DNA of 64,000 nt from Escherichia phage vB_EcoS_AKFV33, in sequence record NC_017969.1; one strand, 5' to 3'. Positions 121-10,281 of this stretch are shown here, piece by piece. A program made the translations under genes and the position numbers. Every line of letters begins with the position of its first letter. Within the stretch, counting starts at the first letter, position 1. The notes beneath the pieces are model-generated. The model made no database searches and had not been told where the DNA came from. It saw only the letters and a program-made list of their open reading frames with translations.

Positions 121-855
121 TTACGCAACTTTTAATTTCTCCATGTATTGTTGCGGGCTGCAACTATATTCTGCGCGTTCTTCCTCGGTCATACCTTCCC
201 AACATAATTTCAAACGATCAGCTAGGAATTGATAATCATTATCATCATCGAGGGATTCATCAATAAAGGTTTCACCTATTAATGCCACGCCGATTGATAG
301 AATATCGTTAACGGCTTGTGCGTCCAGTGTTTTAAATCCGTATGACGCTGCCGCTGATAGCACGCCTTTATGATCATCAATCATTGTAAAATCAGCGTTC
401 GGATATAACTGTTTAAATAACTCAAAATAATAAGATTTATACACTGCGTCCTTGCTGTGGTATATTTCGCTAACCTTATCAGCTTTAAAATATTTATGCA
501 GTGTGTCGCGGGAAAACACGCGGATATTGCTTTTATCACGACCACGCAAGCCTTGTTTGCGCAGGAAGTAATAATCTGATTTGCTCATTAGTCGAGCGGT
601 GCAAATAATGTTTAAAGTATTTGAGTCATTCATGCACTGGCGCATGTATTCAACTAATGGTAATAAAGTATCTTGCATTATTAAATGATGTTTGCAGGCT
701 TCATTTTTATACTTATTTAAATCTAAATTACCCTCATTATCAAAGCAAGGCGCTACACGATGGAAAGAATTAATGATAGTGCCGTCTAAATCCCAAATCA
801 TGACGCGGGAAATATGCGGGAAGCTGCGGGAAATATTCATAATAGCTTTATTCAT
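121..855 (-). CDS. dmp: 5'-deoxyribonucleotidase, HAD-family phosphatase (pre-early)
   Basis: 244 aa ORF; N-terminal HAD motif I (WDLDGTII); first gene of leftward pre-early operon as in T5-like phages. Confidence 0.8.
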   Translation of the reverse strand: MNKAIMNISRSFPHISRVMIWDLDGTIINSFHRVAPCFDNEGNLDLNKYKNEACKHHLIMQDTLLPLVEYMRQCMNDSNTLNIICTARLMSKSDYYFLRKQGLRGRDKSNIRVFSRDTLHKYFKADKVSEIYHSKDAVYKSYYFELFKQLYPNADFTMIDDHKGVLSAAASYGFKTLDAQAVNDILSIGVALIGETFIDESLDDDNDYQFLADRLKLCWEGMTEEERAEYSCSPQQYMEKLKVA

Positions 856-941
856 TTGTTACGTTCTCCATTTAAGGGATTAGATTAATTCAATCTAGCC
901 CACTAATTATATTTTATTAGTGGGCTATGTTCAATTAACTA

Positions 942-1343
942 TTAGAACACCAGACCAAAAGCAAGAGCATCAGCGATAAAACTAACATCCTCACCTGATA
1001 CATGGGAACGAATACCCGCGCAGGTATATACTTTTGCACTGATCAATTGATCATCGAGGCAAGCGAGGCAAGGCGCGACAACTGCAAAGGCTAGGCCGGA
1101 TTTTACGGCGTCGATGATAATCGTTTCTTGTTTCACAGTGTCAACATAAACACCTTTTGCTTTAATATGGCTGGTTAGTTTACCTTGCATATATGCAAAG
1201 GTAGTAACCTGCAAGGCGTCGTTAAAGTCCAATAGCTCATCAATAACGTGCCCCGCCTCGACGTGGTAACGTTCGCCATTAGAATAAACCAGAACAATTG
1301 AGGATTGAGCGCGATCGAATGGAATGCGATTAGATTTAGCCAT
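942..1343 (-). CDS. hypothetical pre-early protein
   Basis: 133 aa ORF; conserved AATCCC..GGAG-type leader upstream. Confidence 0.5.
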   Translation of the reverse strand: MAKSNRIPFDRAQSSIVLVYSNGERYHVEAGHVIDELLDFNDALQVTTFAYMQGKLTSHIKAKGVYVDTVKQETIIIDAVKSGLAFAVVAPCLACLDDQLISAKVYTCAGIRSHVSGEDVSFIADALAFGLVF

Positions 1344-1379
1344 GTTTATAACTCCAATTAGTTTAATAAGGGGTTTAAT

Positions 1380-1637
1380 TTATTTGATAATAATCTGCAT
1401 CTGGTACGGCGTTAATTCACCGTTTACGGGTAAGTTATTATCGCTTAGCCACTCATAAAAAGCACCATCATCATCAAAAGGGACAATATCGTTATCACGG
1501 GAATCGACGGAAATAATACCATCCGTATTAGTTTTGGCGGCTAGGATAGGTCCGAAGCTGTAAACTTTATCGGATTCCATTTCATCCGGTGAAATGAATA
1601 CTTTTTCGTCCAATGTTTTGGGTAATGTAACTTTCAT
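1380..1637 (-). CDS. hypothetical pre-early protein
   Basis: 85 aa ORF, acidic, SD upstream. Confidence 0.45.
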   Translation of the reverse strand: MKVTLPKTLDEKVFISPDEMESDKVYSFGPILAAKTNTDGIISVDSRDNDIVPFDDDGAFYEWLSDNNLPVNGELTPYQMQIIIK

Positions 1638-1694
1638 TCTAATTTAGCTCCTATAATAGCGGCTATATTTCAAGCCGCTAGGGTAATAATTTAA

Positions 1695-3359
1695 TTATGC
1701 AAAGAATTTACCGTTTTTAAAGTCAATCAAAGTGCGCTGACCGTTTGCATAGGTAATTAAATGCGTTTGCGTCCAGCTTGACGCGCCAACGTTGTAACCC
1801 ATGTCCAGACTACCAGCTACGCCAGCGGTGTATACGCCACCGTAAATGCTGGCGGTATGAGTGTGTCCAGTGTTCAGTTTACCCAATTTCTTAAACTGTT
1901 TCGGATTGCCACGGCTGCCGTTAATGCCGTTGTGACCGTGTACGCCGCATTCAATGCCTGCAATCTTGAAAGATTGATCAGTAGTCAGGAAAATGGCGTT
2001 AAATTCACAACCTGCAACCTTGCGCAGCGCATAATCTAGCACGTTGAAGGTGTCGTCTTTTTCTGCAATAGCTCCATAAATCGCGGCATTTAGGCGGTGA
2101 TATAGTTCGGCGTTGGCGGGATCGTCTTTGATGTTAGCATTACGATCATCCAGCCAACGGGATAACGCCAGATCATGGTTAGATTCAACAATGATTGTTT
2201 GAGAAAAATCGCGCTCCATTGACTCCAACACGCGCCCCGTATCGATAAGATCATCCAGAACTTTATCACGTCCGGCGGCATACTGTTTTGCTAGGAATAC
2301 ACCGGATGCGCGGTTATGATGATTGCGGGATGTAAAATCATGCACGTCATGCACAAACTGATATTTTGGTTTAAGAATATCAAGCAAGCTATTTTCGCCA
2401 GCCCATGACGCAACGGCACAATCATCATCCAGTTTTTCGGCGTGAATATCGCCATATTGCAAGCCTAAAACATGCCCCGACGTTTCATAGCATCCGGCAG
2501 GAGTAGCGCAAACATTCAGATCATAAAATACCCCGCTTTCATCCATCGTTTCAAGCTGGCGAACAAAAAACTCACCGTCTTCGTCGAACTCGACAACAAG
2601 CGCACCGAAATTATGCAATGCTTCGGCTTTTTGTCCTGCCTTCTGCTGAATGTAGTTTTTGAGCGTTGCCGTTCCAGTTGAATACATACGGCGCACTACT
2701 TCACCTTTTAAAGCTGGCACGCTTTCGGCGGTAATTTTAGCGTGACCAATTGCCAGACCTTCCAGATTAAGCGCCGTTGCAGTTTCAGCGAATCCAGAAA
2801 GCGGATAATCTGCGGTGGGCAAAACGTTAATTTCAGCCATGAAAGCAAAACGGCGGTTATTTAAAAACACGTTTTTGCTGCAAATATATTTATCGAATGC
2901 GGAATCATATTTTATCCCATCCGCGCCCTCGCCATTTTGGAATCCGTTTTTATTATAAATATACTTAGAAACAAGCAAATCAGCACCGATAAATTGGGCA
3001 TATTGCTCCAGACTTGCTAAAAAGTTTTTATGCGGGAAAGTATTATTCTGAATCGATGTAATAATAAAGCGTTTGCCCTGCTTTACTTCCCAGCTTTCCA
3101 CCGTGCTAGAAACAATCCCCGCCGCTTCTGGGCGCTCATCGTTTTTAATGGCTTTTGCTACTTTTGCCGCTTTTGGTTTGACTGGTTTATTTGCTTCCAG
3201 CCAATCACAAATGGCGGTGGAGTGTTTAGTAGTATCGTATACCGCTTTCGAAATATCGTCACAAACTTCCAATTTAGTGGCGCGCAGACGTTTACCGTAG
3301 AAATTGAAGTCAGCGGCCATTTTCAGGATAACGGTTTGTTTTTCTGCGGAAATAATCAT
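1695..3359 (-). CDS. A1: A1-like pre-early protein with C-terminal calcineurin-like metallophosphoesterase domain
   Basis: 554 aa ORF; phosphoesterase motifs (GDIH, HGHNG, GHTH) in C-terminal half; lies between dmp and A2 as in T5. Confidence 0.8.
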   Translation of the reverse strand: MIISAEKQTVILKMAADFNFYGKRLRATKLEVCDDISKAVYDTTKHSTAICDWLEANKPVKPKAAKVAKAIKNDERPEAAGIVSSTVESWEVKQGKRFIITSIQNNTFPHKNFLASLEQYAQFIGADLLVSKYIYNKNGFQNGEGADGIKYDSAFDKYICSKNVFLNNRRFAFMAEINVLPTADYPLSGFAETATALNLEGLAIGHAKITAESVPALKGEVVRRMYSTGTATLKNYIQQKAGQKAEALHNFGALVVEFDEDGEFFVRQLETMDESGVFYDLNVCATPAGCYETSGHVLGLQYGDIHAEKLDDDCAVASWAGENSLLDILKPKYQFVHDVHDFTSRNHHNRASGVFLAKQYAAGRDKVLDDLIDTGRVLESMERDFSQTIIVESNHDLALSRWLDDRNANIKDDPANAELYHRLNAAIYGAIAEKDDTFNVLDYALRKVAGCEFNAIFLTTDQSFKIAGIECGVHGHNGINGSRGNPKQFKKLGKLNTGHTHTASIYGGVYTAGVAGSLDMGYNVGASSWTQTHLITYANGQRTLIDFKNGKFFA

Positions 3360-3449
3360 AGTAATAAAACTCCATTAAAGGGATTAGGTTAATAACGGCA
3401 ATATTGCCAAATATAACGCCTCGAACAATAGGCGTTATAATTTGCAACA

Positions 3450-3647
3450 TTAATTTAAAGGCATAAGGCTAGAACTAACACCACAAGCAACGGCGGCAAT
3501 AAAACAAATCAGACCTAAACGTTTTGCTAATTTAGATTTACGTTTAAAATAATACGAATCTAAATCATTTTGAAAATAAGCGAACAATAACGAGGCCGCC
3601 ATAATAAATAAGCCTAGAATTAAAGATTCAGTAGGGAAGAAAACCAT
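3450..3647 (-). CDS. small membrane protein
   Basis: 65 aa ORF with hydrophobic segments; conserved leader motif upstream. Confidence 0.4.
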   Translation of the reverse strand: MVFFPTESLILGLFIMAASLLFAYFQNDLDSYYFKRKSKLAKRLGLICFIAAVACGVSSSLMPLN

Positions 3648-3738
3648 TTTTTAAAACTCCTGATTTAAGGGAAGAAAATAACTATCGCTAAACAGTTATA
3701 TTATTGCCCCCTCACTAGAAGGGGGCAAGGTATAACTA

Positions 3739-4146
3739 TTATTCCCCTGCGGCTTGTTTTACTTCATCGGCAACGCCTAGCAGTTGCGCTACGGCGTCCA
3801 GCGTTTCAAGTTTTGCACTTTCCAGACTTGCCAGATCATCGGCGTCTTTGATAATGCCGGAATCAATAGCATGTTTAGCGATAACGCGCACATAGTGAGC
3901 TTTACGCACAGAGCTACCGCCGCCAACTTTACGCGGCTTATCGCTTTTTTGATAGGCTTTTGCACTGGTCAATTTTGACCGAACGGATACGGGAGAAGCC
4001 GCGCCTACTGCTTTTGCAATCTCTTTTAAACCGTCGCTATTTGCGAAATCTAAACCGTTTTCATTGATTAACTGCTGGTACATAGAAACAGCTTTCTGAG
4101 TGTTTTCTTCGTTCCATGCGAATTTTGCGGTTTTTGCGTTAGTCAT
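3739..4146 (-). CDS. A2: A2-like pre-early protein
   Basis: 135 aa ORF directly upstream of A1 in operon order; size and position match T5 A2. Confidence 0.65.
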   Translation of the reverse strand: MTNAKTAKFAWNEENTQKAVSMYQQLINENGLDFANSDGLKEIAKAVGAASPVSVRSKLTSAKAYQKSDKPRKVGGGSSVRKAHYVRVIAKHAIDSGIIKDADDLASLESAKLETLDAVAQLLGVADEVKQAAGE

Positions 4147-4247
4147 GATTGTAGCTCCTGTTAGTTTAATTTAAGGGATAAGATTAACATAATGTTAATC
4201 GTTATATACCCCGAACTACTGGGGTATATAAAGTTAACACTATAAAT

Positions 4248-4499
4248 TTATGCTACGGCTTCCCATTTTTCGTTGCGTTGAACAACCTTTACAACGTCGC
4301 CGGATTTAACGCGAACGCTAAAAACGGTTTTGCCGTTGTTACTACGTTCATTTTCAGCGTATACCGCGTCGATTGTATCAAATGGCATAAGCGCCGCGCC
4401 TTTAATGCGTTCGGCCTTTCCGGTTAATTCATCCGTTTTAGTAACGAAAGGAATAAAAACGGATTGACCAATTTTAGGCGCGGTAATAACGTTTTGCAT
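4248..4499 (-). CDS. hypothetical pre-early protein
   Basis: 83 aa ORF; conserved leader motif upstream. Confidence 0.45.
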   Translation of the reverse strand: MQNVITAPKIGQSVFIPFVTKTDELTGKAERIKGAALMPFDTIDAVYAENERSNNGKTVFSVRVKSGDVVKVVQRNEKWEAVA

Positions 4500-4732
4500 A
4501 GTATAAACTCCAGTTATTTAGGGGATTGTTCCGCATTACCTGCTAGAAAAGTAGTGGCAGGTAATAAGTAACAATCCGCTCGCCAATATAATCAATTTAA
4601 AGAACTCCACGCAGGCTGCTATATCCCAGTTAGGGGGCAGGATGATTTATGGGGAATCACCTAACCGTCAAATTTTATCAAGTTATCGCTCTTTTCGAAC
4701 TGGGTACATCTTAAAACCTATCGGCTAGGTTG

Positions 4733-4936
4733 TCAAACGGTTTTTTGCAGTTTTTTATGATTTTCTTTTAGGTCAATCATAATATTTCGCCAGATCATTT
4801 CCAGACCTTGCTGGCGACCTTTCTTGTACTGCGTGAATCGGTATTTTACCGATCTTTGCGCTACTGTCAACAAATTTTTTGTTTTGCTATCTAGTGCCTT
4901 AATAGGCTTGCCAGTGATCAAAAGCGTTTGTTTCAT
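4733..4936 (-). CDS. hypothetical protein
   Basis: 67 aa basic ORF. Confidence 0.3.
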   Translation of the reverse strand: MKQTLLITGKPIKALDSKTKNLLTVAQRSVKYRFTQYKKGRQQGLEMIWRNIMIDLKENHKKLQKTV

Positions 4937-5223
4937 ATCGTCGATTCCTTATAATGAATAAGTTTACCGCCGATAGGCTTTAAGATATACCCAATTTTTA
5001 AAGAGCGTGGCGGTAAACTTCCCGCCGTGTAGTTCGTCATTGCCGCCCTACGAGATAAATAATAGGGGATTCCCGAAAATGGCGCAACCTTATTTTTGTA
5101 AAGAAACGTAAAGACACGATCCACCGAACGGCGTGCGGCGACCTGGGCGCGGCGCATTAAAATTAAAAGAAACGGGCGCGCGAATACCACAAAACAAAGC
5201 AAATAGGCAAGTAATTTTTTCAT
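4933..5223 (-). CDS. hypothetical protein with N-terminal signal/TM segment
   Basis: 96 aa ORF, N-terminus MKKLLAYLLCFVVFA. Confidence 0.35.
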   Translation of the reverse strand: MKKLLAYLLCFVVFARPFLLILMRRAQVAARRSVDRVFTFLYKNKVAPFSGIPYYLSRRAAMTNYTAGSLPPRSLKIGYILKPIGGKLIHYKESTI

Positions 5224-5393
5224 TTATATTTGCTTTCCCCTACTTGACAAAATCTAAAAAGCTCGTGGTAGCGATAAACGGCTTATCCCCTTATGATGGG
5301 ATGGCTAAAAACTTCATCGCGTTCTAGGGCGTTTTAGACGTGTTCTAGCCCTGTTGATAACTTATCCCCAAAAGCAAAAATGAAATTTTCCTA

Positions 5394-5429
5394 GTTATCC
5401 ACTTGACTTTTATTTTCCAGTGGATAACT
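5394..5429. promoter_or_regulatory. inverted pair of DnaA-box-like sites (AGTTATCCAC / GTGGATAACT) with 16-bp spacer
   Basis: perfect 10-bp inverted repeat containing TTATCCAC. Confidence 0.45.
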
Positions 5430-5678
5430 ACTTATTTTATAAAATTAATTAATTGACTTTTATTTGTTAGTATGTATCGGAAAGATAGCAGACTAATAAT
5501 TACTAGAATAATAACCATGCTGGTGGATTGTAACGGCCTAAACTATCAGCAGACTATTAATCACGAAAAATCTCGTTAGCTAACTAACTATTTCATGATG
5601 TATAATATACATATAAATTAATGAGAAATAATAACTATAAGAAACTATCGGCCTAAGTGAGAACCACTATCATTTAAG

Positions 5679-5771
5679 TTATCCACAAGTTTATTAACAG
5701 CACAAAATGATTTGACACGATAGGCGGCGATATAAAGACTTATCCACAGACTTATCCACAGGTTATCCTAC
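5679..5771. promoter_or_regulatory. cluster of DnaA boxes (TTATCCACA x3 plus TTATCCTAC)
   Basis: exact matches to DnaA box consensus at about 5679, 5740, 5752. Confidence 0.5.
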
Positions 5772-5786
5772 TGTATAAATATACAG
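5740..5786. repeat. left arm of inverted repeat (CTTATCCACAG..TTATCCTACTGTATAAATATACAG)
   Basis: reverse-complement copy found at 8876-8911. Confidence 0.5.
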
Positions 5787-6053
5787 GGTAGAAAGGTAGT
5801 GTTAACAACTGCAATCAATTTTAAGCGGCCTAAAACGCTTTCTAACGAGCTAAATGCGGTGGGATAATATTAAAGTAAAGCCTTCACCCGTCGCCCTGGT
5901 GGCTTCGCCGTGGTTTGCTCTTTATTACACCGCTGCGCGGTTAGCATAAAACTAGGCGCTAGGCAAGGAAAATAAAAAGGTAAAATAATATTTGCCCCTA
6001 GAAAGAAAATACCTTTATCATTCACTCACCGATTAACGAGGGAGGCCGAACAA

Positions 6054-7046
6054 ATGAGGCTTTATAAACCTGATAATGCCACCGTTTTAAAAGGTGCATT
6101 GCGTAACCTGCTGGACGGTAGCAGGTCAACCAGCATCAAACATTTTGTTTTCAATATTGAAACTATTCATCGTAATTTTATTGATGATTATGATGCTTAT
6201 AATATGAATAGTTTTCTACCGTTATATAAACAAGGGGCAACGCTTGTTTTATATAATCAGGATTATCAATTGCTTACTAGCAGGGGGTCGGATACTGATT
6301 TCATAATCGTAAAAGGTAGCACAGTAAAAGCCTATGATACCGGGGCGGGCTTAGAAGTTTTCACAATAGAAAACTATGAGGCTAATGATAATGATCTTTA
6401 TGATGTAGAAAATTTTCTCGATTCATTTTGGCGTTATTTATCAGTTGGCTGGAATCGATCAGATTATGACGGGTATCGTTTTGCGGCTGTAATGGCTTTT
6501 GATGATAACGGTAATTTTTTGTTACCGTCGGAATTATGCCCTTATGTATATAATGATCTAATAGAAGAGGCTGGTTTTTCTTTCTGGAAAGATGATGATC
6601 AGCCCATTGACAATACAGAAAAACATGCTGTAAATTCTAACACTCAAAGCGTTAATACTCAAATCACTGAAAACAAAGGAAAAAACACCATGACCAAGAT
6701 CGCTAATATTGTTGCCGCTAATAAATCCGCTGTTGTAAATGCTGCAAAACTGGAAGCGGGTAAAATTGCACTGACTCAAATCACGAAAGTAGCGGCTAAA
6801 AAAGCACCGTTTATTATCAAGGGTTATATTGATACGCCGATTGGTCGGGTAGTGATTGCCAACCTGCTGAGCGTAGCGGTTGACCAGTACGCCCCTAGCA
6901 ACCAAAAAGCGAAAGCGGTAGCGGGCGCAGCTATGGAAGCGGCCATGTTAGAAATGGTGCAATCTTTTAACATTGCTGAGATGATTGATGAAATGGTGAA
7001 AGGTATTGATATTTCTACTTTTACCGTTAACAACGAAAGCGAGTAA
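6054..7046 (+). CDS. hypothetical protein (rightward pre-early cassette)
   Basis: 330 aa ORF with strong SD (GAGGGAGG) 7 nt upstream of ATG; Ala/Lys-rich C-terminal half. Confidence 0.6.
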   Translation: MRLYKPDNATVLKGALRNLLDGSRSTSIKHFVFNIETIHRNFIDDYDAYNMNSFLPLYKQGATLVLYNQDYQLLTSRGSDTDFIIVKGSTVKAYDTGAGLEVFTIENYEANDNDLYDVENFLDSFWRYLSVGWNRSDYDGYRFAAVMAFDDNGNFLLPSELCPYVYNDLIEEAGFSFWKDDDQPIDNTEKHAVNSNTQSVNTQITENKGKNTMTKIANIVAANKSAVVNAAKLEAGKIALTQITKVAAKKAPFIIKGYIDTPIGRVVIANLLSVAVDQYAPSNQKAKAVAGAAMEAAMLEMVQSFNIAEMIDEMVKGIDISTFTVNNESE

Positions 7047-7073
7047 TAGCTAACCTAGTGTAAAGTTTTGTAA

Positions 7074-7100
7074 AGGTCGCCTTTTATGGTGGCCTTTTTT
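7074..7100 (+). terminator. rho-independent terminator candidate
   Basis: hairpin AGGTCGCC/GGTGGCCT (with G-U pairs) followed by TTTTTT. Confidence 0.45.
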
Positions 7101-7162
7101 GTTATAATGCCTTTACACCAAAACGGTGGATTGAAAATTTCCCAAAAAATTGGAGGCTTATA

Positions 7163-7393
7163 ATGGTTGCTTACTCTTCTGCTAGTCATCTGTTCACCGC
7201 TCAAGGCTGGGTATCTAACCGCGTTATTATTCACGAAATGGTGCAAGAATATGGCATTGCTAAAACTTATAACACCATTCAGGAATTATATAACGCTGAT
7301 AAGATTGATCAGCAAACGGCTGGCTTTTTGCTAGATACCCTGAAAGCTGAACATTGCACTAAAAAACAAGCCGCTAAAATTGTTTTAATGTAA
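7163..7393 (+). CDS. hypothetical protein
   Basis: 76 aa ORF, SD GGAGG upstream. Confidence 0.45.
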   Translation: MVAYSSASHLFTAQGWVSNRVIIHEMVQEYGIAKTYNTIQELYNADKIDQQTAGFLLDTLKAEHCTKKQAAKIVLM

Positions 7394-7400
7394 TTAATAA

Positions 7401-7421
7401 CGGGGGATATTATATCCCCCG
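7401..7421 (+). terminator. stem-loop (CGGGGGATAT/TATATCCCCCG), terminator-like
   Basis: perfect 10-bp palindrome just after stop of 7163-7393. Confidence 0.3.
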
Positions 7422-7442
7422 ATAACTAGGAGGCTATCACAA

Positions 7443-7592
7443 ATGGTTATTTTTCGAGCTATTTTAGCGGGTATCTTGGGCGCTATTTTATCTTTGTTTG
7501 CAATAGCTTTCGGCGTTCACGCGGTTATTATCGGCGCGGGTATCGCTGTATTTTCTTATCTGCTGGGCTGCATGACTAGTAAAGGAGAATAA
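7443..7592 (+). CDS. small hydrophobic peptide (49 aa)
   Basis: ATG preceded by SD AGGAGG; product MVIFRAILAGILGAILSLFAIAFGVHAVIIGAGIAVFSYLLGCMTSKGE; below ORF-track size cutoff. Confidence 0.4.
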   Translation: MVIFRAILAGILGAILSLFAIAFGVHAVIIGAGIAVFSYLLGCMTSKGE

Positions 7593-7594
7593 AA

Positions 7595-7807
7595 ATGATC
7601 CGCAACGTTTCTCTTGCACGTTCGAAAGGCTTTAAGCTGGTGGATGCTAACACGTTCGAGCGTCCAGATTGTAAAATCGAATATGTAGCACGTAATAAAA
7701 ATGCCTTTCGTGTTACCGAGAAAAAATTCGACAAGCGCGGCAACGTGATCGCTGAAACGGTTAAACACTTTGCCACCTTTTACGCTGCGTTTCGTGGGGT
7801 ACTATGA
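7595..7807 (+). CDS. hypothetical protein
   Basis: 70 aa ORF, SD AAAGGAG upstream. Confidence 0.45.
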   Translation: MIRNVSLARSKGFKLVDANTFERPDCKIEYVARNKNAFRVTEKKFDKRGNVIAETVKHFATFYAAFRGVL

Positions 7808-7947
7808 AAAGCGTTATTGTTATTATCCTTGCAATGGTTAGCGGTTTTACCGCCACCTTATTTAAAAATGACCCCATTTCGTTGGGGATCTTTATGCTTT
7901 TATCTGGCTATCTGATCGGGAGGCTAACAAATGATTCAGCAAATTAA
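7804..7947 (+). CDS. small membrane peptide (47 aa)
   Basis: ATGA start/stop overlap with upstream gene; hydrophobic product MKSVIVIILAMVSGF... Confidence 0.35.
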   Translation: MKSVIVIILAMVSGFTATLFKNDPISLGIFMLLSGYLIGRLTNDSAN

Positions 7948-8053
7948 AACGGCTTTTCGTTTTTGGGGCGTCCTGCCTTCAATCGGTTTTATTCTGATAA
8001 TCATTAGTCAGCTAATGATTATAGGAGGAACTATTTGGGAGCTATGCAAATGA
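7931..8053 (+). CDS. small membrane peptide (40 aa)
   Basis: ATG with SD GGGAGG upstream; hydrophobic product MIQQIKTAFRFWGVLPSIGFILIII... Confidence 0.3.
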   Translation: MIQQIKTAFRFWGVLPSIGFILIIISQLMIIGGTIWELCK

Positions 8054-8394
8054 TAATTTATGAAGGCAATCGCTTTGTTGCTAATTGCCGTACGGCATTA
8101 CTAGCAAATTACTTAAATCAGCTTTCCCCAGCTTACAAGGGCGTTATTAATATTTATGAGGGCAAGGCGCATTATAAAATCAATGCGGTCGTTGCCCGTG
8201 AACTAGCGTTTCAATTTTTGACCTTTGCATCTTGTGACGTTCAGGTTATGGGTGAGGCATTAATTGCAGAAAATGAAGATGATTTTATTAATATTTTCCG
8301 CAAGATATGCACCGAGCGGCTGATAATGAAAGGCGCATATATTCAATCCACTGCGGATAGCATTGAAACAGCATTTCGAAAGGTGGCGCAGTGA
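8044..8394 (+). CDS. hypothetical protein
   Basis: ORF track 8035-8394 begins at a TTG; ATG at 8044 has SD AGGAGG upstream. Confidence 0.5.
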   Translation: MQMIIYEGNRFVANCRTALLANYLNQLSPAYKGVINIYEGKAHYKINAVVARELAFQFLTFASCDVQVMGEALIAENEDDFINIFRKICTERLIMKGAYIQSTADSIETAFRKVAQ

Positions 8395-8422
8395 GATAAT
8401 CAACTAATAACGGAGCGTTATT

Positions 8423-8617
8423 ATGAGCAATAAAATTATTGTAACCAAAACTAGTACAATGGTTGATATTTTTTACGTGCCCGATACGCCGGAAAACCGA
8501 CAAGCGGTCGAGCGTGGCGAATATGATAAAGTGATTTATGATCACGATGGTTATTATCATTATTTGGTAGATTCCTATGGGGAGGAGGAAAAAATCACGC
8601 ACCGACTACCGGACTAA
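8423..8617 (+). CDS. hypothetical protein
   Basis: 64 aa ORF, SD GGAG upstream. Confidence 0.45.
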   Translation: MSNKIIVTKTSTMVDIFYVPDTPENRQAVERGEYDKVIYDHDGYYHYLVDSYGEEEKITHRLPD

Positions 8618-8658
8618 TAATCACGGGGCGCAACTATCAGGAAGTGCCCCCAATTCTC

Positions 8659-8679
8659 AAATGAGAATGATTCTCATTT
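8659..8679. repeat. perfect palindrome AAATGAGAATGATTCTCATTT
   Basis: operator-like dyad symmetric site. Confidence 0.5.
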
Positions 8680-8875
8680 GACCGCGCTCGCGATGGTTAG
8701 CCTGCTAATGGTTAGGGTGTTACGTGTCGCCTTGTGTGATCGTTAGCGGGCTAACTAATTTTCAAGCCTCCTCCAATTTTGCCCTTGTTTTAGTATCTCC
8801 ACCAAAATTAAACGCGTTAGAATGCGATCTAGGACGTTTTAGCGGTATATTAGAATTATTCACTACATAGGAATA

Positions 8876-8911
8876 CTGTATATTTATACAGTAGGATAAG
8901 CTGTGGATAAG
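8876..8911. repeat. right arm of inverted repeat with DnaA box (CTGTATATTTATACAGTAGGATAAGCTGTGGATAAG)
   Basis: reverse complement of 5740-5786 region. Confidence 0.5.
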
Positions 8912-9002
8912 TCTGTTAATAACGCTTCAAAATGGCTAGGATTCTGTCAAATCAAATCGTGCTGTTAATAAGTCTGAGGATAACTTAAATAATAGTGTTT
9001 CT

Positions 9003-9175
9003 CACTTCCATTCTTAAATGCGAATCATTATCATTCGCATTTCACTATCTAACCGATAATCACTCCACTTTTTAAATGAGAATCATTTCACTTTTTGAAT
9101 AGCTCTCATTTCACTTCTTAAATGAGAATAATTATCATTTGCATTCCACTTCTTAAATGATAATGATTCTCATTC
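9003..9175. repeat. four direct copies of ~22-bp motif CACTTCTTAAATGAGAATCATT (some internally palindromic)
   Basis: copies near 9003, 9063, 9107, 9148. Confidence 0.5.
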
Positions 9176-9180
9176 AAAGT

Positions 9181-9200
9181 CGCAGGGCAATTGCCCTGCG
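9181..9200 (+). other. perfect 20-bp palindrome CGCAGGGCAATTGCCCTGCG (hairpin, terminator-like)
   Basis: followed by CTTTTG. Confidence 0.35.
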
Positions 9201-9205
9201 CTTTT

Positions 9206-9943
9206 GTGCAAATCCGACATTGCTCCACGGGTGTTACGTGCGGGCATGTATGTGCGAATCCGACAATTTTTGGTAGTGTGCAAATCCGACCCGAAAAATT
9301 TTTATAGTGTGCAAATCCGACAATGAATTTTCCCAAAAACTCCAGCAATCCGATGCTGCGCATCAATCCTGTGGAATTAGCTAGAATATGTGCAAATCCG
9401 ACATGGGTTTATTTGTGCGAAACCGACAAGATTTTTGTGACTTCGATTGGAGGGTGTGTGATTGTATGGGTTTGGGGAGAAGATAAGAGAGCGAGAGAAA
9501 TTTGGGAGGCTAGAAGGATGGGGCGCATGTTTGGTGCGGAGCACCTGATTTGCGGGGATTTTGGGGAAGAGTTGAGAAGATTTGGGTTAATTTGAGATAA
9601 GTGCAGAAAAAGTAAAATTTTATTAGCAAAATGGGGCAAAATAGCTTGACAAGTGAAAATTTCTGTGGCTCTAAAAACTCAGGCAATCATGGGCCTTCGG
9701 CCCGAAATAATGCTGCCATTTTCAGGAGATTATGTGTCCATGAAAACTTAGGCAATTGTGCAAATCCGACCAGTTTTTAAACTTATGTCAGTGTGCAAAT
9801 CCGACAGTAATTTCTGTAAATGTGTTTTCAAAAAATGTCTCCTAGAAATAACCGCCCTCCCAATAACCGCCCTGTATAGGAAAACCGGCCTAGGATATTT
9901 ATAGCAGGAGAGAAACTGCCCTATAATATGTGCAAATACGACA
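9206..9943 (+). repeat. array of nine direct 14-bp repeats GTGCAAATCCGACA (iteron-like)
   Basis: copies at about 9206, 9251, 9277, 9308, 9389, 9414, 9767, 9792, 9930, all in the same orientation, 0-2 mismatches. Confidence 0.6.
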
Positions 9944-10281
9944 GGATTTTCCTAGAAACTTAGGAGTCTACTAGAAAGTGTTGTGCCATCCTAGGAAGAG
10001 CGGTGGCAACAAGTGTATCATCTTGAATGTAAATTATGTGGTCAAAAGTTTTACCTTTAATTTAAGTATAAGATCCCCCAAAGATTGGAAGAGATGCTCC
10101 ACCCCTGGGATACGAATTGCGTGAGATGGTACAAAACTTCTTAAGATTTCCCTAGCCCTTCGACAAGCTACGGGGGAAATAGAAGTTTCCCATCCACTAT
10201 CCGTATCCGGGTGGATCTCTTTATTCTATGTTATTTCATAGAGTTATTATAACATGCAGAAATCATAACGTCAAGTAGAGT

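What the first reader, a model, noticed from the sequence alone, without database searches (positions are those of the whole stretch)
5394..8911. DnaA-box cluster and ~45-bp inverted repeats bracketing the rightward pre-early cassette
Consensus DnaA boxes (TTATCCACA) occur at about 5679, 5740 and 5752, plus an inverted pair at 5394-5429. The segment ACTTATCCACAG..TTATCCTACTGTATAAATATACAG at 5740-5786 recurs as a reverse complement at 8876-8911, so the 3.1-kb rightward cassette (6054-8617) is bounded by inverted repeats carrying DnaA boxes. Possible roles are host DnaA recruitment, an injection-stop or origin function, or a recombination/inversion substrate.
Basis: seen in the sequence. Interest (0 to 1): 0.55.

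Follow-up and report, generated by a model that had tools for sequence, protein, structure and literature searches.

The report
T5 injection-stop repeats with host-protein sites
The two inverted repeats are the already-described DnaA-box repeats that flank the variable pre-early genes of all T5-like phages, but each copy also carries a near-perfect binding site for the host SOS repressor LexA, which no paper I could search mentions and which gives a new handle on how T5 pauses its DNA injection.

Summary
The window is the left end of a T5-like phage. The repeat is larger than reported: 147 nt, 78% complementary (5655-5801 / 8861-9007). It carries eight DnaA-type boxes in four pairs separated by 3 bp.

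It is not new. It aligns column for column with T5's annotated IR C/D and D'/C'. Davison (bioRxiv 2020) described the eight boxes in 25 T5-like phages and proposed that membrane-bound DnaA holds the injection-stop region. That remains untested.

What I add:
1. T5's "palindrome D", inside each arm, is a LexA operator. The distal copy, TACTGTATATTTATACAGTA, outscores eight genuine E. coli SOS operators. The DnaA-pair plus LexA-box module persists in Vibrio phages, and its family consensus equals the canonical LexA box.
2. The cassette between the arms was inverted at least once in evolution, with breakpoints inside the arms. Orientation is fixed within genera, so it is not a switch.
3. Primer mapping shows a viable published T5 mutant lacks the whole proximal arm, so arm pairing is dispensable.

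An origin function is not supported. The best reading is a landing pad for host DnaA and LexA at the boundary of the first-transferred DNA. Protein binding and the pause role are inferred, not shown.

The parts
5655..5801 (+). Proximal (A2-side) arm of the inverted repeat, equivalent to T5 IR C - spacer - IR D
   Evidence: 147-nt inverted repeat, 78% complementary (I1). Aligns column for column with T5 6005-6170.
5679..5699 (+). Outer DnaA-box pair: TTATCCACA-AGT-TTATTAACA
5740..5760 (+). Inner DnaA-box pair: TTATCCACA-GAC-TTATCCACA (two consensus boxes). It belongs to the most conserved block across the family.
5763..5771 (+). Third, degenerate box TTATCCTAC, overlapping the first 3 nt of the LexA-like 20-mer
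5769..5788 (.). LexA-operator-like palindrome TACTGTATAAATATACAGGG (3 mismatches to consensus, PWM 20.8 bits)
6054..8617 (+). Variable pre-early cassette of 8 ORFs. The first is a 330-aa DUF7566 protein, homologous to T5 gene 011. The segment is inverted in some genera.
8861..9007 (-). Distal arm, equivalent to T5 IR D' - spacer - IR C', at the left edge of the non-coding injection-stop region
8874..8893 (.). LexA-operator-like palindrome TACTGTATATTTATACAGTA, equivalent to T5 'palindrome D' (1 mismatch to consensus, PWM 25.0 bits). It is the best-scoring site in the 64-kb window.
8902..8922 (-). Inner DnaA-box pair of the distal arm: TGTGGATAA-GTC-TGTTAATAA
8963..8983 (-). Outer DnaA-box pair of the distal arm: TGTTAATAA-GTC-TGAGGATAA
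5352..5427 (.).
   Evidence: (I25). The motif TAGTGGATAACTA also occurs beside the proximal arm of Klebsiella phages.

Best explanation
WHAT IT IS. The two arms are mirror-image copies of the T5-family element IR C-spacer-IR D / IR D'-spacer-IR C'. Each copy is a roughly 150-bp landing pad for DNA-binding proteins already present in the host. It holds two tandem pairs of DnaA boxes 61 nt apart. Abutting the inner pair is a LexA (SOS) operator.

WHERE THE COPIES SIT. The distal copy (8861-9007) opens the non-coding injection-stop region. It is the copy that matters. The proximal copy (5655-5801) sits between the leftward A2/A1 operon and the rightward cassette and is an accessory duplicate.

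WORKING MODEL. When the first 8% of the genome enters, DnaA (largely membrane-associated) and LexA occupy these sites before any phage protein exists. They build a stable nucleoprotein complex that marks or holds the boundary of the first-step-transfer DNA. The complex contributes to the pause in DNA transfer, or acts as a barrier at that boundary, until phage A1/A2 act. Homology between the two copies has also let the intervening cassette flip during evolution. The element is neither a replication origin nor a programmed switch.

SHOWN: identity with the T5 element; the match to the host consensus sites; deep conservation; the evolutionary inversion; dispensability of the proximal copy.

INFERRED: that DnaA and LexA actually bind, and that binding contributes to the pause.

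MY ESTIMATES: identity with the known element 0.97; binding of DnaA and/or LexA about 0.75; a role in the pause about 0.35-0.4.
For: IDENTITY. The arms align with T5's annotated repeats at 79% mean column identity. The architecture matches Davison's description of eight boxes in pairs separated by 3 bp.

ENRICHMENT. There are 5 exact DnaA boxes against 0.74 expected, and 4 of them lie in the arms. Two LexA 20-mers with 3 or fewer mismatches are present against 0.00 expected, one in each arm.

QUALITY OF THE LEXA SITE. The distal box scores 25.0 bits. Eight real E. coli K-12 operators (recA, lexA x2, sulA, umuD, ssb/uvrA, recN x2) score 18.1-24.4. The next-best site in the 64-kb window scores 15.2.

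CONSERVATION.
- The module 'DnaA pair + about 8 nt + palindrome' is kept in Tequintavirus, Epseptimavirus, Sugarlandvirus, Eos, My1, UViG57 and PR1 (weaker palindrome). It is also kept in Vibrio phages Ceto and PG07, whose A2 is only about 40% identical and whose flanks are unalignable; D386 keeps it with a rearranged box pair.
- In an 18-arm alignment this block is the most conserved, and the consensus of the palindrome is exactly TACTGTATATATATACAGTA.
- The two motifs are present together in nearly all of L012-L058 and absent together in L059-L091.

POSITION. The distal arm lies immediately left of the annotated injection-stop region of T5.

LITERATURE.
- An older report of a second FST band near 5.8 kb, close to the proximal arm, is quoted.
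- PR1-type phages have only the distal arm.
- The viable T5 mutant DLDR deletes about 5393-9081 of AY587007. That removes the whole proximal arm and keeps the distal one.

PRECEDENT. DnaA and LexA act together on overlapping boxes at the E. coli uvrB promoter.
Against: - No binding or functional experiment exists for any of these sites.
- T5-like phages are propagated on recA1 hosts such as DH5a (host field). LexA cleavage therefore cannot be required for infection.
- It is physically unclear how proteins bound to DNA that has already entered would stop the DNA behind it.
- The proximal arm is dispensable, so any model that needs both arms to pair, such as the 'Gordian knot', is weakened.
- Conservation of a palindrome is equally compatible with recognition by a conserved phage protein.
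- The loci used for conservation are phylogenetically related, so counts of loci overstate independent support.
Confidence: 0.45

Rival explanations
1. Transcriptional control module. DnaA and LexA bound at the arms act as co-repressors of arm-embedded promoters, or as orientation-symmetric roadblocks or insulators. In this reading they confine pre-early transcription to the cassette and keep RNA polymerase out of the injection-stop region and the A2/A1 operon, as at the E. coli uvrB promoter.
For: - uvrB shows DnaA and LexA repressing together, with an overlapping DnaA box and LexA box. Here a third, degenerate box overlaps the LexA 20-mer.
- A 10/12 promoter-like match on the minus strand has its -10 inside the proximal LexA box: TTAACA at 5805-5800, 16-nt spacer, TATATT at 5783-5778.
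- The mirror symmetry of the arms means outward-moving polymerases meet the same box orientation at both ends (read directly from the sequence).
- The cassette works in either orientation between the arms, as expected of symmetric boundaries.
Against: - Promoter-like matches in 5100-9400 are not enriched: 14 found against 14.2 expected.
- By eye, the 5805-5778 match is not conserved in T5 or Sw2 (alignment).
- The experimentally characterised T5 promoters lie elsewhere: P-D/E20 and P-H22 to the left, and one just upstream of gene 011.
- The proximal arm sits between divergent promoters, where there is little transcription to block.
Confidence: 0.25
2. Phage-protein site. The palindrome, and perhaps the box pairs, are recognised or cut by the phage's own A2 dimer or A1/A2 complex to restart transfer or join the terminal repeats. 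The likeness to host LexA/DnaA sites is incidental or mimicry.
For: - A2 is a dimeric DNA-binding protein essential for second-step transfer, and Davison listed palindrome D among candidate A1/A2 cleavage sites.
- A1 is now reported to be a nuclease sufficient for host DNA degradation.
- A1 and A2 are conserved in every phage that carries the module.
Against: - Two independent motifs in the same block match two different host consensus sequences. The family consensus of the palindrome equals the LexA consensus exactly.
- The sites stay at host consensus in Vibrio phages although A2 has diverged to about 40% identity.
- The A2 model is an all-helical protein with no significant structural match and no resemblance to the LexA winged helix. 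The model is only moderate, though: pLDDT 76, pTM 0.41.
Confidence: 0.15
3. DnaA-dependent replication origin located in the terminal repeat.
For: Tandem high-affinity DnaA boxes resemble oriC and plasmid origins. AT-rich stretches of 75-76% lie at 5400-5500 and 5600-5700.
Against: - No oriC-type 13-mers and 0 GATC in 5224-6053.
- No iterons or initiator gene nearby.
- T5 origins were mapped near the genome centre, and the replication genes are not expressed while only the FST DNA is inside.
- The whole proximal arm can be deleted.
Confidence: 0.03
4. Programmed invertible segment: a switch that flips the cassette within phage populations.
For: The cassette is flanked by inverted repeats and has inverted during evolution, with breakpoints inside the arms.
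Against: - All of the roughly 40 Tequintavirus/Epseptimavirus loci share one orientation, and each other genus is also uniform.
- The arms are only 78% identical.
- None of the eight proteins scanned (five of the eight cassette ORFs, A2 and two neighbouring ORFs) has a recombinase or invertase domain.
Confidence: 0.03

Closest known systems
T5 inverted repeats IR C / IR D and IR D' / IR C' with 'palindrome D' (GenBank AY587007 annotation; Heusterspreute 1987; Davison 2015 and bioRxiv 2020, 'IRCspacerIRD')
   Same: It is the same element. It has the same position in the left terminal repeat and the same eight DnaA or DnaA-like boxes in pairs separated by 3 bp. The spacing is the same, and the arms align column by column.
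   Different: This is a different phage, about 92-93% identical to the nearest database records. [quoted passage not shown] All eight boxes are intact, whereas T5 lost one. The LexA identity of palindrome D and the inversion of the cassette are absent from the literature I could access.
E. coli uvrB promoter region (DnaA and LexA co-regulation; PMC6015884)
   Same: High-affinity DnaA boxes lie next to and overlap a LexA box. The two host proteins act on one short stretch.
   Different: uvrB is a chromosomal promoter. Here no conserved promoter could be shown. The module is duplicated in mirror image 3 kb apart and lies on DNA that enters the cell from a virion.
Tandem DnaA-box arrays of oriC and plasmid origins, and non-origin DnaA-binding loci such as datA (from general knowledge)
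   Same: Clusters of consensus TTATCCACA boxes in fixed register.
   Different: No unwinding element, GATC cluster, iterons or initiator gene. The known T5 origins are elsewhere.
Invertible DNA segments bounded by inverted repeats (Mu G, P1 C, Salmonella hin; from general knowledge)
   Same: A gene cassette bracketed by inverted repeats that exists in both orientations across lineages.
   Different: No invertase gene was found. The repeats are long and diverged (147 nt, 78%). Orientation is fixed within each genus, so this is rare homologous recombination and not a switch.

Membership tests
T5-family IRC-spacer-IRD / IRD'-spacer-IRC' repeats | Two inverted copies of about 130-150 bp in the left terminal repeat, flanking the variable rightward pre-early genes | tested here: met
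   147-nt inverted repeat at 5655-5801 / 8861-9007 around ORFs 6054-8617
T5-family IRC-spacer-IRD / IRD'-spacer-IRC' repeats | Sequence homology to the T5 repeats themselves | tested here: met
   Four-way alignment with T5 6005-6170 and 9315-9480: 79% mean column identity, with boxes and palindrome invariant
T5-family IRC-spacer-IRD / IRD'-spacer-IRC' repeats | Eight DnaA / DnaA-like boxes in four pairs, 3 bp between the boxes of a pair, constant spacer between pairs | tested here: met
   Pairs at 5679/5691, 5740/5752, 8902/8914 and 8963/8975; 61 nt start to start in both arms
T5-family IRC-spacer-IRD / IRD'-spacer-IRC' repeats | Distal copy adjoins the non-coding injection-stop region, and the phage shows two-step DNA transfer | not testable with these tools
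   The position is met: repeat families homologous to T5's follow at 9000-9945. Two-step transfer of this phage cannot be tested in silico.
DnaA box (high-affinity R type) | 9-mer TTATCCACA / TT(A/T)TNCACA | tested here: met
   Four exact boxes in the arms. The window has 5 exact boxes against 0.74 expected.
DnaA box (high-affinity R type) | Bound by DnaA | not testable with these tools
   Needs a footprint or ChIP. The literature states that no experiments exist.
LexA (SOS) operator of Gammaproteobacteria | Palindrome CTGT-N8-ACAG with an AT-rich centre; consensus TACTGTATATATATACAGTA | tested here: met
   5769-5788 has 3 mismatches and 8874-8893 has 1; 0.00 such sites expected by chance
LexA (SOS) operator of Gammaproteobacteria | Scores within the range of proven operators | tested here: met
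   25.0 and 20.8 bits against 18.1-24.4 for eight E. coli K-12 operators taken from NC_000913.3
LexA (SOS) operator of Gammaproteobacteria | Overlaps or adjoins a promoter that it represses | tested here: inconclusive
   One 10/12 promoter-like match overlaps the proximal box, but such matches are not enriched and this one is not conserved
LexA (SOS) operator of Gammaproteobacteria | Bound by LexA; derepressed on SOS induction | not testable with these tools
   No experimental data found
DnaA-dependent replication origin | AT-rich unwinding element with 13-mers, GATC cluster, or iterons plus an initiator gene next to the boxes | tested here: not met
   No 13-mer match within the non-coding arm regions, 0 GATC in 5224-6053, no initiator gene
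Programmed invertible segment | Site-specific recombinase nearby, and both orientations present among close relatives | tested here: not met
   No recombinase domain in the eight proteins scanned. A single orientation in about 40 close relatives.

The most novel reading that the evidence does not exclude
The long-sought host 'stop' factors of T5 two-step DNA transfer are abundant host global regulators acting together. The injection-stop region would then be a composite of their operators: eight DnaA boxes, two better-than-chromosomal LexA operators and possibly a run of Fur-like boxes. The incoming DNA is seized by pre-existing DnaA, LexA (and Fur) until A1/A2 release it. Because DnaA is essential and the factors are redundant, host genetics would never have found them. 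LexA occupancy would also couple the pause to the SOS state of the cell.
Probability: 0.2. Interest if true: 0.8.

Novelty: already known. Interest (0 to 1): 0.42.

Why it matters
How T5 stops DNA injection after 8% of its genome and then restarts has been open for more than fifty years. No host factor is known. The DnaA-box repeats themselves are a rediscovery.

Recognising the conserved 'palindrome D' as a top-quality LexA operator fused to the DnaA boxes names a second, non-essential and easily manipulated host protein. That makes the question directly testable with lexA(Def), lexA(Ind-) and scrambled-site phages.

The evolutionary inversion and the viable proximal-arm deletion also narrow the models. 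The distal arm is the candidate. Pairing of the two arms is not required.

Tried and rejected
- Co-variation test. I hoped distant A1-encoding metagenomic phages would carry DnaA boxes next to a different LexA motif. Loci L059-L091 have neither DnaA-box pairs nor the palindrome, so the test was not possible.
I used an A1 profile instead.
- A2 as a LexA mimic. A2 has no Pfam family and no PDB relative; PHROGs lists it only as 'DNA binding protein'. The single-sequence model (pLDDT 76, pTM 0.41) gave no Foldseek hit with E below 0.4. Result: inconclusive.
- The 59-nt core module was searched in plasmids and in 5,426 E. coli genomes: no match. It is specific to these phages.
- A promoter explanation for the LexA box: promoter-like sites are not enriched (14 against 14.2), and no conserved -35/-10 could be found by inspection.
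- Origin hallmarks are absent.
- An IHF site in the spacer: inspection found no WATCAANNNNTTR match conserved between arms. The invariant TTGACA in the spacer remains unexplained.
- Davison's 2015 review (PMC4743489) and the 1987 and 2005 primary papers are not held. I cannot exclude that one of them mentions LexA.


Full report
**What the window is.** The first 10 kb have the gene order of the left terminal repeat of phage T5. The genes dmp, A1 and A2 lie on the minus strand (121-5223). A non-coding gap follows (5224-6053), then a rightward cassette (6054-8617), then a long non-coding repeat-rich region. The nearest records in the phage collection are Tequintavirus-type phages at about 92-93% identity. 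No record holds this genome as a whole; the single ≥99% match was not identified.

**Checking the observation.**
- Exact TTATCCACA occurs at 5679, 5740 and 5752 (+) and at 8902 (-). The window has five in all against 0.74 expected.
- The 'inverted pair' at 5394-5429 exists, but its boxes are one-mismatch variants, TTATCCACT.
- The near-perfect core of the repeat is 5750-5788 against 8874-8912, 36 of 39 positions.
- The repeat really extends over 147 nt at 78% (5655-5801 / 8861-9007) and has no rival in the region.
- Each arm contains two tandem box pairs. Boxes within a pair are 3 bp apart, and pairs are 61 nt apart start to start.

**It is a known element.**
- T5's GenBank record annotates inverted repeats C (6022-6060), D (6112-6152), D' (9332-9372) and C' (9424-9462), and a 20-bp 'palindrome D' at 9330-9349.
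- The window's arms align with these column for column.
- Davison's 2020 preprint compared 25 T5-like phages. It described the eight DnaA or DnaA-like boxes in pairs separated by 3 bp with a constant spacer. It argued against an origin role.
- The preprint proposed that membrane-bound DnaA holds the injection-stop region until an A1/A2 nuclease cuts the DNA free.
- Later papers repeat this as an untested idea.
- The finding as handed to me is therefore a rediscovery.

- The 20-mers at 5769-5788 (TACTGTATAAATATACAGGG) and 8874-8893 (TACTGTATATTTATACAGTA) differ from the canonical SOS box TACTGTATATATATACAGTA at 3 and 1 positions.
- They are the only two sites in 64 kb with 3 or fewer mismatches, against 0.00 expected.
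- I fetched eight genuine operators from E. coli K-12 (recA, lexA x2, sulA, umuD, ssb/uvrA, recN x2). They have 2-6 mismatches and score 18.1-24.4 bits on a matrix built from themselves.
- On that matrix the window's boxes score 25.0 and 20.8 bits. The next-best site in the window scores 15.2.
- Neither 'LexA' nor 'SOS' occurs in Davison's preprint or in the BF23 paper.
- Four full-text searches found nothing linking T5-type phages to LexA.
- The 1987, 2005 and 2015 papers are not held, so an older mention cannot be excluded.

**Conservation.** I retrieved first-step-transfer regions through the A2 and A1 proteins, not through the motif.
- The module 'DnaA pair, about 8 nt, palindrome' is present in Tequintavirus, Epseptimavirus, Sugarlandvirus, Eos, My1 and an IMG/VR lineage with A1 at 43% identity. 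PR1 keeps it with a weaker palindrome.
- It is also present in Vibrio phages Ceto and PG07. Their A2 is only about 40% identical and their surrounding DNA no longer aligns. D386 keeps a similar module with a rearranged box pair.
- In an alignment of 18 arms the most conserved block is GAGTTATCCACAG-ACTTATCCACAGGTTATCC-TACTGTATAWWTATACAGTA.
- The majority consensus of the palindrome is exactly the canonical LexA box.
- More distant A1-like metagenomic loci lack both motifs together.
- The core module is absent from plasmids and E. coli genomes.
- Two different host-protein consensus sequences are thus held side by side across phages of Enterobacterales and Vibrio. That is most simply explained by selection for binding host DnaA and LexA, whose specificities are shared by these hosts. 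This last step is inference from general knowledge.

**The cassette has been inverted in evolution.**
- The 330-aa cassette protein (DUF7566, homologue of T5 gene 011) lies on the strand opposite A1 and next to the A2-proximal arm in the window. The same holds in T5 and about 40 Tequintavirus/Epseptimavirus loci, in PR1-type phages and in L057/58.
- In Sugarlandvirus, Eos and My1-type phages it lies on the same strand as A1 and next to the distal arm. The homologues of the 119-aa and 64-aa proteins are in reversed order too.
- The 90-nt inner flanks of the arms are swapped between the two groups, while the outer flanks keep their positions. The proximal inner flanks of Roth37, K32PH164C1 and Eos score 36, 32 and 28 against the window's distal inner flank and 15, 13 and 13 against its proximal one. 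Shuffles average 8.7, with a maximum of 16. The signal is weaker for the distal inner flanks and for My1.
- The breakpoints therefore lie inside the arms.
- Davison had noted the opposite reading direction but described it as replacement by unrelated DNA.
- Orientation is uniform within each genus, so this reflects rare recombination between the arms and not a switch.

**Is pairing of the arms needed?**
- A 2026 preprint built a viable T5 mutant, DLDR, that lacks hegG to 017 and forms smaller plaques.
- Mapping its published primers on AY587007 puts the deletion at about 5393-9081. This removes the entire proximal arm (6022-6152) and keeps the distal arm.
- PR1-type phages also have only the distal arm.
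- The proximal arm, and hence any obligatory arm-to-arm complex, is therefore dispensable. The distal arm, at the edge of the annotated injection-stop region, is the functional candidate.

**Mechanism.**
- My best reading is a host-factor landing pad that pre-existing DnaA and LexA occupy as soon as the first-step DNA enters. It would contribute to the pause or act as a barrier at that boundary until A1/A2 act (confidence 0.45).
- LexA cleavage cannot be essential, because T5-like phages grow on recA1 hosts.
- The main rival is a transcriptional role modelled on uvrB, where DnaA and LexA share overlapping boxes. I found no conserved promoter in the arms, and promoter-like matches are not enriched.
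- Recognition by phage A2 or A1/A2 remains possible. A2 has no informative relatives, and its single-sequence model gave no significant structural match.
- An origin is disfavoured.

**Verdict.**
- The element is already known.
- The LexA operator and the inversion are modest new points.
- The LexA operator makes an old question easier to test.

Noticed in passing
window 8651-8680, 9008-9037, 9066-9095, 9112-9141, 9147-9176; also 225-249: The 30-nt repeat family just beyond the distal arm (T5 'direct repeat C' / palindromes E-I) resembles the Fur box GATAATGATAATCATTATC; for example AATGATAATGATTCTC is 14/16 in register. The window has 16 sites with 5 or fewer mismatches, 15 of them in the first 9.2 kb and 7 in 8600-9200, against 0.07 expected at local composition. 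The best is GATAATCATTATCATCATC at 231 (2 mismatches, inside the 3' end of dmp). Over 58 related loci such sites are about 7-fold denser within 700 nt outward of an arm, but those loci are not independent. 'Fur' does not occur in Davison's preprint.
   Followed up: partly
window 9205-9945: Nine copies of TGTGCAAATCCGACA-like 17-mers at irregular spacing (T5 'direct repeat D') fill the right part of the injection-stop region. I could not match them to any binding protein.
   Followed up: no
window 5313-5337, 5830-5854 (inverted), 8815-8839: A further conserved motif of the type GCGTTCTAGGGCGTTTTAG (part of T5 IR B/B') lies on the cassette side of both LexA-like boxes and again near 5320. Related versions flank the palindrome in Klebsiella, My1 and Vibrio phages. 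Its function is unknown.
   Followed up: partly
window 5711-5716 and 8945-8950: TTGACA is invariant in the four window and T5 arms and present in most arms across the family, in the spacer between the two DnaA-box pairs. No conserved -10 follows it, so it is probably not a promoter -35. It remains unexplained.
   Followed up: partly
window 9181-9200: A GC-rich perfect hairpin, CGCAGGGCAATTGCCCTGCG, followed by a T run (terminator-like). It lies at the position of T5 'palindrome J', next to the major 7.9% nick.
   Followed up: no
window 4687-4725 and 4969-5007: A second inverted repeat (39 nt, 85%) brackets the 67-aa ORF at 4733-4936. It corresponds to T5 IR A/A' around gene 008 (hdi) and the strong promoter P-H22.
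   Followed up: no
loci L059-L091 (IMG/VR metagenomic contigs): Distant A1-like metallophosphoesterase genes (36-46% identity, GC 34-67%) occur on viral contigs that have neither DnaA-box pairs nor the LexA-like palindrome. The A1 family is therefore wider than the phages that carry this module.
   Followed up: partly
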